Positions 613 to 2,025 of a stretch of DNA of 12,477 nucleotides are shown piece after piece. Under the pieces are notes generated by a model. The model was not told where the DNA came from, made no database searches, and saw nothing but the letters and a program-made list of their open reading frames with translations. The position numbers were made by a program, and so were the translations under genes. Each line of letters opens with the position of its first letter. The stretch's first letter is position 1. The stretch is from a virus. Location: the UHGV virus genome UHGV-0119008; one strand, given 5' to 3'.

Positions 613-633
613 GACAAGTACGCGCGCGTAGCA
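613..633. repeat. Direct repeat copy A, gacaagTACGCGCGCGTAgca with a (CG)n palindromic core
   Basis: Near-identical to 2003-2025 (copy B carries one extra CG). The core TACGCGCGCGTA is a perfect 12-bp palindrome. Confidence 0.85.
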
Positions 634-656
634 TCGACAGCATACACATTGGATAT

Positions 657-878
657 TCATTTTGTGACCAATGCGATAAGTAGCGGGATAAGAATTGATA
701 AAATCAACAGGCCGATGATCCACTTTTGATTTTCACTGGCCTTATCTCTATTTTCATCAATCTTATCAATAATTCGACGCTCCAATCCGTGCATATCACC
801 GCGAATGGCAATCATCTCATTGCGAACATCAGGGAAGTGGTTGGCTTGATGTTCAATGTGTGGCGTTCTGCCTTTCAT
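657..878 (-). CDS. Small membrane-anchored protein (hypothetical), single C-terminal TM helix
   Basis: 73-aa ORF. SD-like ggtgagga lies a few nt upstream of the ATG on the minus strand. C-terminal stretch IIGLLILSILIPLLIALV is strongly hydrophobic. Same orientation as, and just downstream of, the RHH gene. Confidence 0.5.
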   Translation of the reverse strand: MKGRTPHIEHQANHFPDVRNEMIAIRGDMHGLERRIIDKIDENRDKASENQKWIIGLLILSILIPLLIALVTK

Positions 879-957
879 ATCTGATCCTCACCTATCGTCA
901 CTACCTGCTGGTGTATAAAGGTATTGGCCCAAGCAACTTTCCAATGGGCACTCATGT

Positions 958-1413
958 TTATACGCTGACCTTACAATCAATCACTGCTTTTAGCTTTTCA
1001 GCATTGCTTCCCTGACGCTTCCACGCGCTGTAAATATCTTTATCCCACGCTTTACCAGCTTTTGTTTGATAGCCTGCTTCATTGATCCGTTCAGCTATCA
1101 CACGCCCATTATCAAATCCCTGTTGGATGGTATCGGCAATGATCTTTATAACTGCCGTTTCGTTATATGGTTTTGGTGGGATGTTCGGCTTTCCGGCAAT
1201 AAGCGACGCAGCGGCTTTTTCCATGCGCTCCACCAGCCCAAGCATTCGTGAATCAATAGACTTTTCCGGCTGCCCCAGCTTCATGCGAATCGCATCAACA
1301 AGCCAGGAGGTTTTATCTCCTCCAGAAGCGAGAACAGACCGATTAAACTCATCCTGCAATTCAGATGGGATGCGGAACGCGACCAGATTAGATTTGCTCA
1401 TTGCAAAGACCAT
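958..1413 (-). CDS. Ribbon-helix-helix (Arc/Mnt/CopG-like) DNA-binding protein with ~100-aa C-terminal domain
   Basis: 151-aa ORF. N-terminus NLVAFRIPSELQDEFNRSVLASGGDKTSWLVDAIRMKL has the strand-helix-helix pattern of RHH repressors. Operator-like palindromes lie immediately upstream (1431-1461). Start may be 1413 or the ATG at 1401. Confidence 0.55.
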   Translation of the reverse strand: MVFAMSKSNLVAFRIPSELQDEFNRSVLASGGDKTSWLVDAIRMKLGQPEKSIDSRMLGLVERMEKAAASLIAGKPNIPPKPYNETAVIKIIADTIQQGFDNGRVIAERINEAGYQTKAGKAWDKDIYSAWKRQGSNAEKLKAVIDCKVSV

Positions 1414-1430
1414 ATCAGTGAGTAATATCC

Positions 1431-1461
1431 ATACAGTATACCACTGTATAACACTGTTATA
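1431..1461. promoter_or_regulatory. Compound operator-like palindromes in a divergent promoter region
   Basis: ATACAGT-atacc-ACTGTAT (7-bp arms, 1431-1449) overlaps TATAACA-c-TGTTATA (7-bp arms, 1447-1461). Both sit between the divergently transcribed RHH and PerC-like genes. Confidence 0.6.
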
Positions 1462-1513
1462 CGCTCAAATATCAGCCAGAAAATAACGGACCAATCACAA
1501 ATCTATCGCTGTG

Positions 1514-1636
1514 TTGTTGGTTCAGAGCTGGGCTGTGTTGGTTCAAAATGAGTTGATGTTGGTTCAATATTTCAGAAAAAACACAATAAAAACAACAATC
1601 TTTACAAATTGAACCAACTGAACCAACTGAACCAAC
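1514..1636. repeat. Six copies of GTTGGTTCA: three forward at ~21-bp spacing, three tandem 9-bp inverted copies (tgaaccaac x3)
   Basis: Forward copies at ~1516, 1538 and 1558. Tandem tgaaccaac at 1610-1618, 1619-1627 and 1628-1636. An A-rich spacer separates the two sets. A TATAAT hexamer at 1654-1659 follows, just upstream of the PerC-like start. Confidence 0.85.
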
Positions 1637-1672
1637 ACCTTTTTGCTTATCTATATAATCTGAGAGGCAGAA

Positions 1673-1954
1673 ATGATAAGGGACAGGAAAGCTGAAGAGC
1701 TGGAGTCAAAAGGGCTATACCGGAGAGCTGCCGCACGATGGATGGAAGTCATGCTGTTATGCACCGAGGACGATGATCGGGAATGGATAAAGCGCCGCCG
1801 TGAAACGTGTCTGGAGAACGTGAAGCGCCCGCCCGTGAAGGTTGAGGAATTTGGCGACCTGCATAAAGCTGTTACCGAAACGCAACACCGCATGGGGATA
1901 GCGCAACCGAACGGTAACGCCTTCCGGTTAAATGGCGGCAAGAGGCAAAGGTAG
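1673..1954 (+). CDS. PerC-family transcriptional activator homolog (PerC/Pch-like)
   Basis: 93-aa ORF with SD gagagg upstream. N-terminal motif RDRKAEELESKGLYRRAAARW matches my recollection of the PerC/Pch family signature. Size is typical for the family. Not verifiable without a search. Confidence 0.65.
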   Translation: MIRDRKAEELESKGLYRRAAARWMEVMLLCTEDDDREWIKRRRETCLENVKRPPVKVEEFGDLHKAVTETQHRMGIAQPNGNAFRLNGGKRQR

Positions 1955-2002
1955 ACCACCAGAGGGAAATCATCCTCTGGCTGGCGGTTTCTGGTATTTC
2001 GG

Positions 2003-2025
2003 GACAAGTACGCGCGCGCGTAGCA
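2003..2025. repeat. Direct repeat copy B, gacaagTACGCGCGCGCGTAgca
   Basis: Matches 613-633 including flanks (tatttYgNgacaag ... tagca). Copies A and B bracket the RHH / membrane protein / PerC module. Confidence 0.85.

What the first reader, a model, noticed from the sequence alone, without database searches (positions are those of the whole stretch)
613..2025. Direct repeats with a (CG)n palindromic core bracket the RHH / membrane protein / PerC module
gacaagTACGCGCGCG(CG)TAgca occurs at 613-633 and 2003-2025 in the same orientation, ~1.4 kb apart, enclosing exactly the three-gene regulatory module. Related CAGTACGCGC copies cluster at 249-390. The alternating-CG palindrome is reminiscent of the central dinucleotide repeats of protelomerase target sites and is also a potential Z-DNA former. 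Paired direct repeats around a module suggest a cassette boundary or recombination site.
Basis: seen in the sequence. Interest (0 to 1): 0.45.

Follow-up and report, generated by a model that had tools for sequence, protein, structure and literature searches.

The report
Junction repeats in a phage satellite
The two CG-rich direct repeats are real copies of a short, one-way-oriented sequence unit that marks the joints between exchangeable gene modules, including an anti-phage defence slot, in a family of E. coli phage satellites; they are not telomere-like or Z-DNA sites.

Summary
GACAAGTACGCGCGCG(CG)TAGCA lies at 613-633 (copy D) and 2003-2025 (copy E), and the similarity extends to about 45 nt. 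Related copies A-C lie at 250-399, all on the + strand.

The window is an E. coli chromosomal island at thrW. It is a P4-like satellite (isrK/C4 RNAs, alpha-type primase) that carries P22-type genes 14-7-20-16.

D closes a 500-bp non-coding block that is 95-99% conserved in 545 genomes and contains a P22-pac-like site. Right of D is a variable slot holding a 73-aa protein, AbiD, CapP-like ImmA/IrrE, or an HTH protein. E sits 146 nt upstream of the core of a SfV/phiP27-type cos site.

Comparative evidence shows the unit is a recombination joint:
- Homology to variants ends 4 nt after D.
- One genome of 584 carries an exact D/E fusion and lacks the 1.39-kb module.
- In a distant clade, the 21-nt unit is the only sequence shared by reassorted left and right modules, and all four combinations exist.
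- A sister clade uses a different motif (TACCCCATGAG) in the same way.

In relatives, the units also form arrays just upstream of the isrK/C4 early promoter, so they are probably also protein-binding sites.

The cassette-boundary reading is partly supported. The protelomerase and Z-DNA readings are not. The recombination mechanism and the protein that binds the unit remain unknown.

The parts
240..262 (+). Copy A of the CG unit (core CAGTACGCGC at 250-259), truncated on its 3' side
282..303 (+). P22 pac-like site GAAGATTTTTCTGATATCACTG, lying between copies A and B
   Evidence: 13/14 identity with the left part of the annotated P22 pac. 11/12 with the published consensus AAGATTTATCTG (PMC10996546). 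It is the only such site in the window. Positions 259-325 are invariant among 12 distinct block sequences.
315..346 (+). Copy B of the CG unit (AATTTCGTGACCAGTACGCGCGCG)
368..399 (+). Copy C, degenerate (GACCAGTACGCACACG)
   Evidence: 7 of 27 positions vary among block copies
132..637 (.). Conserved non-coding block that carries copies A-D and the pac-like site, with variable gene slots on both sides
   Evidence: 95-99% identical in 545 of 5426 E. coli genomes. Homology breaks at 132 and 637.
589..633 (+). Copy D (the finding's left repeat, 613-633, plus its shared upstream part), at the right edge of the conserved block
638..990 (.). Variable accessory/defence slot. Here it holds a 73-aa membrane-type protein (657-878, - strand). 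Elsewhere it holds AbiD, CapP-like ImmA/IrrE plus a partner, or an HTH protein.
958..1401 (-). 147-aa putative regulator (RHH-like N-terminus, unconfirmed), universal in the island family
1510..1650 (.). GTTGGTTCA iterons (3 direct and 3 inverted) between the divergent regulator and perC genes. A second cluster lies downstream of the primase gene.
   Evidence: (L002 9045-9165)
1673..1954 (+). PerC-family gene
   Evidence: Pfam PF06069, E=3.7e-30
1979..2025 (+). Copy E (the finding's right repeat, 2003-2025, plus its shared upstream part). Its core is one CG longer than in D.
   Evidence: The start of its core motif is always 164 nt upstream of the start of the cos motif when the cos module is present.
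2122..2235 (+). cos region of SfV/SfII/ST64B/phiP27-type phages. The core TGCCCGCCCC at 2171-2180 aligns with the annotated 10-nt cos of phiP27.
2252..2437 (+). 61-aa protein (C-terminus APAYQWKKPAPRR). In relatives, the homologous gene usually lies downstream of the unit arrays or downstream of cos.

Best explanation
D and E are two of at least five same-orientation copies of a satellite-specific cis unit. Its 21-24-nt core is TTTCGnGAC(A/C)AGTACGCG(CG)n, and D and E share about 45 nt.

In this family of P4-like satellites, the unit sits at the joints between modules and is the place where alternative modules are joined.

Shown by comparison:
- Alternative left and right modules meet exactly at the unit.
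- The defence/accessory slot starts at the unit.
- Recombination between D and E has produced a natural deletion of the regulator/PerC module.

Inferred:
- Exchange happens by recombination through the short shared unit while related satellites and helper phages replicate together. This would be homology-dependent, possibly helped by phage annealing proteins or by DNA ends made nearby during packaging.
- The unit is kept at these places because it is also a binding site for a DNA-binding protein. It lies next to the packaging signals (P22-pac-like site, SfV-type cos). In relatives it forms arrays at about -35 to -200 (34-199 nt upstream of the promoter-proximal CCATAAAAAAGGGCTTG anchor) of the isrK/C4 early promoter.

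The binding protein is not identified.
For: Breakpoints at D:
- Homology of the window to L003-L006 ends at 637.
- Most block copies in 545 genomes stop matching the window at 637.
- D-left is joined to three right contexts: Dwin in 8 loci, Dalt in 9, E in 1.

Natural D/E hybrid:
- NZ_OZ547150.1 gives a contiguous 300-nt match to a synthetic D-left + E-right junction.
- Its gene order is block - hybrid unit - cos - 61-aa gene.

Distant clade (L169-L184):
- HSPs start at -3/-1 or end at +1/+10 of the 21-nt unit.
- All four combinations of two left and two right contexts exist.
- The AbiD cassette there is flanked by a CG unit on the left and by unit-like sequences on the right.

Sister motif:
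- TACCCCATGAG occupies the same region in other islands, always on the + strand, with breakpoints at -2 and +21..23.

Orientation and deep conservation:
- 97 + strand versus 17 - strand matches in 1.48 Mb of islands.
- The unit is non-coding, with stop codons on both sides in several loci.

Arrays upstream of the isrK/C4 promoter:
- 8 of 20 promoter anchors have arrays.
- 17 hits fall in 6 kb, against 80 in 1.48 Mb elsewhere.

Neighbouring packaging signals.

Known precedent for regulatory repeats that drive module shuffling: PeSLs of T4-type phages (PMC2839356).
Against: - A conserved functional element next to variable DNA gives breakpoints at its edges even if crossovers happen elsewhere. 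Only the four-combination result and the D/E hybrid argue for crossovers inside the unit.
- The D/E hybrid is a single genome out of 584. It could be the ancestral empty arrangement rather than a deletion.
- 16-21 nt of identity is at the lower limit for homologous recombination (own knowledge).
- Within the E. coli block, the CG units are not less variable than the spacers (20/129 versus 36/380 variable sites), and copy C is decaying.
- E itself is never a breakpoint in the sample apart from the one hybrid.
- No binding protein was identified. The 147-aa regulator and the 61-aa protein do not co-vary with the motif type.
- The window's own island type has no CG units at its isrK promoter.
Confidence: 0.55

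Rival explanations
1. The units are dedicated site-specific recombination sites, integron-like: a recombinase captures and excises cassettes flanked by co-oriented units. CG and TACC would be two specificity types.
For: - Junctions are exact to within a few nucleotides.
- Orientation is strict.
- Cassettes are flanked by unit-like sequences on both sides.
- Two mutually exclusive motif families occupy the same region.
- The core is a 12-14-nt palindrome.
Against: - There is no recombinase gene in or next to the region. The only recombinase annotated in the intact island (L002) is the P4-type integrase at the island end. Its att core (TCCTATTATCGGCACCA) and putative arm sites (ATGGGGGTA) are unlike the CG unit.
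- There is no attC-like folded structure and no GTTRRRY core.
- Right-hand cassette boundaries in E. coli (991, 1515) are not at CG units.
- Only 1 hybrid was found in 584 genomes, and no reciprocal product.
Confidence: 0.13
2. The units are part of the packaging recognition region, acting as accessory sites for a helper terminase small subunit or a satellite adaptor. Recombination at them would be a by-product of terminase-made DNA ends.
For: - CG units alternate with P22-pac-like units in two diverged clades. In the window the order is A-pac-B. L142 and L153 have two CG units and three tandem pac-like units, one of them 25/30 identical to P22 pac.
- E is at a fixed distance from a SfV/phiP27-type cos.
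- The island carries P22 genes 14-7-20-16.
- Some relatives' units match the published P22 pseudo-pac pattern (sequences).
Against: - Similarity between the CG unit and the pac unit is statistically weak (p 0.03-0.2).
- P22 itself has no CG unit.
- Copies up to 1.4 kb apart, and arrays at an early promoter, are not what a single packaging site needs.
- Copy F in L004/L005 and the TACC region have no recognisable phage packaging homologue nearby.
- No terS relic is detectable at protein level.
Confidence: 0.15
3. The units are purely transcriptional control sites (operators or upstream activating sites) for an island or helper regulator such as the AlpA/Vis-like HTH protein or PerC. Their position at module borders only reflects where promoters lie.
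For: - Arrays lie at about -35 to -200 (34-199 nt upstream of the promoter-proximal CCATAAAAAAGGGCTTG anchor) of a conserved promoter, TTGCCG-N18-TATGGT with an A-tract, that drives isrK and C4.
- The sites are asymmetric and head-to-tail, as for Xis/Vis-type binders (own knowledge).
- + strand genes follow D in variants (AbiD, ImmA) and follow E (61-aa gene).
Against: - No sigma-70-like promoter is predicted after B, C, D or E in the window.
- In the window, the genes right of D are on the opposite strand.
- The window's island type lacks CG units at its isrK promoter.
- No co-variation with any tested protein was found.
- This rival does not by itself explain the four-combination pattern.
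Confidence: 0.15
4. The repeats are protelomerase-like targets or Z-DNA-forming elements.
For: An alternating CG run inside a short palindrome.
Against: - The palindrome is 12-14 nt, and copies B, C and F lack its right half.
- The conserved part of the unit is the asymmetric left half.
- No protelomerase gene appears among the annotated island genes. The element is integrated at a tRNA gene and bounded by att repeats.
- The CG run is only 4-5 repeats long.
Confidence: 0.02

Closest known systems
PeSLs (promoter-early stem-loops) of T4-type phages (Arbiol et al. 2010, PMC2839356)
   Same: Short conserved non-coding motifs are repeated in one orientation between accessory genes of hyperplastic regions. 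Insertions, deletions and replacements between related genomes have their ends at the motifs, and recombination between nearby copies deletes or excises the genes in between.
   Different: PeSLs are demonstrated promoter-plus-terminator cassettes. Here no promoter or terminator activity is evident in the unit itself. The unit is shorter (21-45 nt). The host element is a P4-like satellite rather than a lytic phage. Two unrelated motif families (CG and TACC) play the same role in sister clades.
Linker or boundary sequences of the modular theory of lambdoid phage evolution (own knowledge)
   Same: Short conserved sequences at module borders act as crossover points between otherwise unrelated modules.
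   Different: Those are usually single-copy gene-boundary homologies. Here the same unit recurs several times per element, is strictly oriented, and also forms arrays at a promoter.
Integron attC sites and gene cassettes
   Same: Co-oriented short sites bound exchangeable cassettes that include defence genes.
   Different: There is no integron integrase, no attC architecture and no GTTRRRY core. Cassettes carry their own promoters and lie in either orientation.
Defence hotspots of P2 phages and P4 satellites (e.g. PMC13586616, listed; abstract only)
   Same: A fixed slot in a satellite, between conserved core segments, holds varied anti-phage genes (AbiD, CapP-like protease, HTH/MAD1-like protein).
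   Different: This is a different satellite architecture, with P22-type ejection genes and isrK/C4 immunity. The slot is bounded by a recurring oriented repeat, which to my knowledge is not a described feature of P4 hotspots.
P22 pac site and lambda cosB R-sites (terminase recognition repeats)
   Same: Asymmetric sites of about 20 nt in direct orientation lie next to the packaging signals. One neighbouring unit is clearly P22-pac-like.
   Different: The CG unit itself is not significantly similar to pac, is absent from P22, and is dispersed over more than 1 kb.

Membership tests
Protelomerase target (telRL-type) site | Long perfect palindrome (tens of bp) centred on the alternating dinucleotide run | tested here: not met
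   The palindrome is 12 nt in D and 14 nt in E. Copies B, C and F lack the right half.
Protelomerase target (telRL-type) site | A protelomerase gene and a linear replicon with hairpin ends | tested here: not met
   The annotated genes of the island show integrase, primase, ejection proteins and PerC, but no protelomerase. The element is integrated at tRNA-Thr.
Integron attC / gene cassette | Adjacent integron-type integrase (IntI) with attI and Pc | tested here: not met
   The only recombinase annotated in the intact island (L002) is a P4-type tyrosine integrase about 15 kb away at the island end (L001 also carries the integrase of the inserted AT-rich element).
Integron attC / gene cassette | Imperfect inverted repeats (R''-L''/L'-R') with a GTTRRRY core at the 3' end of each promoterless cassette | tested here: not met
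   The unit has no such architecture. Cassettes have their own promoter-like regions and lie in either orientation.
P22-type pac site | Match to the 22-bp pac and the 12-bp consensus AAGATTTATCTG | tested here: not met
   The CG units do not match: local alignment against pac units gives p 0.03-0.2. A separate neighbouring site at 282-303 does match, at 11/12 and 13/14.
Module-junction repeats that mediate shuffling (PeSL-like or linker sequences) | Several co-oriented copies in accessory regions of related genomes | tested here: met
   5-6 copies in the window and 1-5 in relatives, with 97 + versus 17 - matches.
Module-junction repeats that mediate shuffling (PeSL-like or linker sequences) | Insertion, deletion and replacement end points coincide with the repeats | tested here: met
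   Breaks lie at 637 (D + 4 nt), at -3/+1 of the unit in the L169 clade, and at -2/+21..23 of TACC copies. Exception: the right-hand ends of the E. coli cassettes, at 991 and 1515, are not at CG units.
Module-junction repeats that mediate shuffling (PeSL-like or linker sequences) | Products of recombination between two copies in one genome | tested here: met
   A D-left/E-right hybrid lacking the 1.39-kb module occurs in isolate AHB1. It is a single case, and the direction of the event is not proven.
Module-junction repeats that mediate shuffling (PeSL-like or linker sequences) | The repeat is itself a regulatory cassette (promoter and/or terminator) | tested here: inconclusive
   No consensus promoter or terminator lies in or after the window copies. 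Relatives have arrays upstream of the isrK/C4 promoter.
Protein-binding direct repeats (iterons, operators, terminase R-sites) | An identified cognate DNA-binding protein, or co-variation with one | tested here: inconclusive
   The 147-aa regulator and the 61-aa protein do not co-vary with the CG and TACC types. Mosaicism defeated a wider co-variation scan. Binding cannot be tested with these tools.
Z-DNA-forming tract | An alternating purine-pyrimidine run long enough to flip under physiological supercoiling | not testable with these tools
   Only (CG)4 in D and (CG)5 in E. The length varies between copies.

The most novel reading that the evidence does not exclude
Phage satellites of this family carry a dedicated cassette-exchange system. 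A short oriented site, in two sequence types (CG and TACCCCATGAG), flanks defence and regulatory modules. An as yet unidentified protein cuts or synapses these sites, allowing modules to be swapped, deleted and perhaps circularised during helper infection. That protein could be a satellite factor, or the helper's terminase acting next to the pac-like and cos sites.
Probability: 0.15. Interest if true: 0.8.

Novelty: new variant of a known kind. Interest (0 to 1): 0.5.

Why it matters
Satellites and prophages are major carriers of anti-phage defence genes, and how their hotspots exchange cargo is poorly understood.

Here a defined 21-45-nt oriented unit marks the joint where AbiD, CapP-like and other cassettes are swapped. 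There is one natural recombinant between two copies, and there is four-combination evidence in a distant clade. This gives a concrete, testable cis element for module exchange in a widespread element: the block occurs in about 10% of complete E. coli genomes.

The same work shows that the host element is an unusual hybrid. It has a P4-like immunity and replication core, P22-type ejection genes, a P22-pac-like site and a SfV/phiP27-type cos. This suggests a satellite able to exploit two kinds of helper phage.

Tried and rejected
- **Scan of 185,579 species genomes with GACMAGTACGCGCGCG.** It returned only single chance hits in high-GC taxa. The 16-mer alone is uninformative and the scan was wasted.
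- **Block as a terS gene relic.** tblastn of block ORFs and of the peptide EDFSDIT...DQYAR against 50,697 phages found nothing, and neither did Pfam. Only DNA-level similarity to pac remains.
- **blastn of 262-352 against phages.** No relevant hit.
- **Copy F flank (L005) and the TACC region (L145) against phages.** No packaging-site homologue.
- **CG unit as a degenerate pac unit.** Alignment scores against shuffles are weak, so this is kept only as a lead.
- **Promoter or Q-utilisation site.** There is no similarity to P22 P-late/qut, and no consensus promoter or terminator at the window copies.
- **Integrase arm-type sites.** ATGGGGGTA repeats flank the att core and resemble the reverse of TACC, but TACC-type islands show no such copies near int. 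Dropped.
- **Coding explanation (peptide FRDQYAR).** Reading frames differ between copies, and stop codons flank the unit in several loci. Rejected.
- **Purifying selection on units within E. coli.** Not detected.
- **Reader protein by co-variation.** No signal for the 147-aa regulator or the 61-aa protein. Island mosaicism made the wider scan unreadable.
- **Rfam.** Nothing in the window at the repeats.
- **Literature searches for this island family or for AlpA/Vis boxes.** Nothing found.
- **RHH fold of the 147-aa protein.** The single-sequence model was too poor to use.
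Full report
**1. Observation**

The window reads gacaagtacgcgcgcgtagca at 613-633 and gacaagtacgcgcgcgcgtagca at 2003-2025, on the same strand. The repeat finder groups these two with 327-346 and 380-399.

The similarity of the two main copies is longer than reported. Positions 589-633 (copy D) and 1979-2025 (copy E) align over about 45 nt, with one CG of length difference and one further 1-nt gap.

AGTACGCGC with up to one mismatch occurs six times, all on the + strand, against 1.5 expected. None of 200 shuffles reached six. An exact direct 16-mer repeat is expected 0.018 times, and 6 of 200 locally shuffled windows had any.

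The interval between D and E holds exactly three ORFs. PerC is confirmed. The RHH label for the 147-aa protein could not be confirmed.

**2. What the window is**

The ends of the window are inverted IS2 ends.

Positions 56-3600 are 100% identical to a chromosomal island next to tRNA-Thr (thrW) in E. coli isolate AF3. They are 98-99% identical in 115 genomes.

An intact copy (L002) has this gene order:
- integrase
- AlpA-like HTH protein
- antirepressor
- TOPRIM/DUF927 primase
- homologues of P22 genes 14, 7, 20 and 16
- a variable SieA-like gene on the opposite strand
- the region of the finding
- the 61-aa gene (2252-2437 in the window)
- pRiA4b-ORF3
- attR

This order mirrors P22 14-7-20-16-sieA.

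The left arm carries isrK and C4 antisense RNAs, as in P1- and P4-type immunity regions. GTTGGTTCA iterons lie both between the regulator and perC and downstream of the primase gene.

The element is therefore a P4-like satellite with P22-type virion genes. I found no paper describing it.

**3. Surroundings of the repeats**

Copies A-D lie in a non-coding block, 132-637. This block is 95-99% identical in 545 of 5426 complete E. coli genomes.

The block contains GAAGATTTTTCTGATATCACTG at 282-303:
- 13/14 identical to the left part of the annotated P22 pac site.
- 11/12 identical to the published consensus.
- The only such site in the window.
- Located in the most invariant stretch of the block.

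Copy E is followed at 2122-2235 by a sequence found between the HNH and P27-family terS genes of many prophages. The same sequence lies at the physical ends of the SfV, SfII and ST64B genomes. The annotated 10-nt cos of phiP27 aligns with window 2171-2180. When this cos module is present, E is always at the same distance from it.

**4. Structural variation**

Four island variants lose homology to the window at 637, 4 nt after D. They regain it at 991 or 1515. Among themselves they diverge 60-85 nt further right.

The slot holds one of the following:
- a 73-aa membrane-type protein (this window)
- AbiD
- a CapP-like ImmA/IrrE protease with a partner
- an HTH protein

So D is the left border of a defence/accessory hotspot. 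The right-hand ends of these replacements are not at CG units. E is not a breakpoint in this sample; other breaks fall at 1515 and at 1756 inside perC.

**5. Direct test of recombination between D and E**

I built a synthetic junction from the D-left flank, the core and the E-right flank, and searched all complete E. coli genomes with it. It matched contiguously (300 nt, 97.7% identity) in one genome of 584 that had any match.

In that island (isolate AHB1, at the dinD/yicG site), the block runs straight into cos and the 61-aa gene. The 73-aa/regulator/PerC module is absent.

The hybrid has D's left flank and E's core length and right flank.

Among all loci held:
- D-left is joined to three right contexts.
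- E-left is joined to only one.
- No reciprocal product was seen.

The event could be a deletion. Alternatively, the fused state could be ancestral.

**6. Distant relatives**

I fetched 61 IMG/VR loci using the 147-aa protein.

In these loci the unit TTTCGyGA(A/C)CAGTACGCGCG is kept even in islands whose regulator is only 58-74% identical. It is always in the same orientation. It is non-coding.

Between the gene-16 homologue and the regulator gene, islands carry either this CG unit or a different motif, TACCCCATGAG. They never carry both, and no copy of either motif lies on the minus strand.

In TACC islands the copies sit between genes, and pairwise homology starts at -2 or ends at +21..23 of a copy.

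In the L169-L184 clade, the 21-nt CG unit is the only sequence shared between three left contexts and two right contexts:
- HSPs start at -3/-1 or end at +1/+10 of the unit.
- All four combinations of two lefts and two rights occur.
- One right context is an AbiD cassette, bounded on its far side by unit-like sequences.

This is the strongest evidence that crossovers occur within the unit.

**7. A second setting for the unit**

I fetched 80 islands using the primase.

In these, CG units form arrays of one to three copies 34-199 nt upstream of a promoter-proximal anchor (CCATAAAAAAGGGCTTG) that overlaps the -35 region of a conserved promoter, TTGCCG-N18-TATGGT. That promoter is preceded by an A-tract and drives isrK and C4.

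- 8 of 20 such promoters have arrays.
- 17 hits fall in 6 kb, against 80 in 1.48 Mb elsewhere.
- The overall strand bias is 97 to 17.

In these arrays, and in the right arm of L142 and L153, CG units alternate with P22-pac-like units. One of those is 25/30 identical to P22 pac.

The window's own island type has isrK and C4 but no CG units there.

**8. Interpretation**

The repeats are copies of a satellite-specific cis unit that marks module joints and at which modules are exchanged. This part is shown by comparison.

How exchange happens is inferred. I favour recombination through the short shared unit during co-replication of related satellites and helpers. The unit would be retained because it is also a protein-binding site next to packaging and early-promoter signals.

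Rivals:
- A dedicated site-specific system. No recombinase was found nearby, and the integrase att and arm sites differ.
- Terminase accessory sites. Similarity to pac is weak, and the unit is absent from P22.
- Pure transcriptional control sites. No promoter is predicted at the window copies.

Arguments against strong function:
- The units are not less variable than the spacers within E. coli.
- No reader protein emerged.

**9. Comparison with known systems**

The closest described analogue is the PeSL of T4-type phages. These are regulatory repeats whose recombination shuffles, deletes and circularises accessory genes.

The case also recalls the linker sequences of lambdoid modular evolution and the defence hotspots of P4 satellites.

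It is not an integron, and it is not a protelomerase site. Defining features of both were tested and not met.

I rate it a new variant of a known kind, with moderate interest.

**10. Limits**

- All evidence is comparative.
- The D/E hybrid is a single genome.
- The breakpoint analyses used dozens of loci, not thousands.
- The 16-mer genome scan was uninformative.

Noticed in passing
window 4-55 and 12426-12477: Perfect 52-nt inverted repeat at the two window ends. Both arms are IS2 ends (100% match to IS2 in phage and E. coli records), so the window lies between two oppositely oriented IS2 copies. The left copy interrupts the SieA-like gene.
   Followed up: partly
window 282-303: P22 pac-like site (GAAGATTTTTCTGATATCACTG) in a non-coding block, in the most invariant part of that block. 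Relatives (L142, L153) carry three tandem pac-like units, one of them 25/30 identical to P22 pac. This suggests packaging by a P22-type terminase.
   Followed up: partly
window 2122-2235 (core 2171-2180): cos site of SfV/SfII/ST64B/phiP27-type (HNH + P27-family TerS) phages, carried by the island just upstream of a 61-aa gene. Together with the pac-like site, this suggests that the satellite may exploit two helper types.
   Followed up: partly
window 2037-2061 and 2102-2126: Two copies of GGAA(A)TAGCnGnnACCTGAAT between copy E and cos. The first contains GCGGCGACCT, 10/12 of the lambda cohesive end GGGCGGCGACCT (verified in NC_001416).
   Followed up: no
window 1510-1650; L002 9045-9165: GTTGGTTCA iterons (three direct, three inverted) between the divergent 147-aa regulator and perC genes, with a second 78%-similar cluster just downstream of the primase gene. 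This recalls the ori/crr pair of P4.
   Followed up: no
L002 3240-4307 (island left arm, outside the window): The annotated 'ash family protein' ORF spans the isrK (3621-3698) and C4 (3761-3848) RNA genes found by Rfam. The protein annotation is probably spurious.
   Followed up: no
L002 9789-14447 and window 1-135: A P4-like satellite (integrase, AlpA-like protein, isrK/C4, alpha-type primase) carrying homologues of P22 genes 14, 7, 20 and 16 plus a SieA-like gene in P22 order. I found no description of such satellites in the searched literature.
   Followed up: partly
window 3600-12425: AT-rich second element (major capsid protein, baseplate protein, own tyrosine integrase in L001) inserted between the first island and its attR. 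It is absent from strain SWHEFF_68 (L002).
   Followed up: no
L135-L167 and L197-L262 (related islands): A second oriented repeat family, TACCCCATGAG followed by a pair of 5-mers one helical turn apart. It occurs in 2-4 copies between genes, replaces the CG unit in the right arm of a sister clade, and also coincides with homology breakpoints.
   Followed up: partly
window 2252-2437; L142 3787-3978 and others: A 61-73-aa protein family with the invariant C-terminus APAYQWKKPAPRR. In most islands that have it, the gene lies downstream of the unit arrays or of cos, in the position a small terminase gene would occupy. Its function is unknown. One member has a tandem ELAIQ coding repeat.
   Followed up: partly
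window 1952-2023: After the perC stop codon (TAG, 1952-1954), the same frame stays open for 22 codons and ends at the TAG inside copy E.
   Followed up: no
window 350-373: Perfect 24-nt palindrome CAGTTGCAAAATTTTTTGCAACTG between copies B and C.
   Followed up: no
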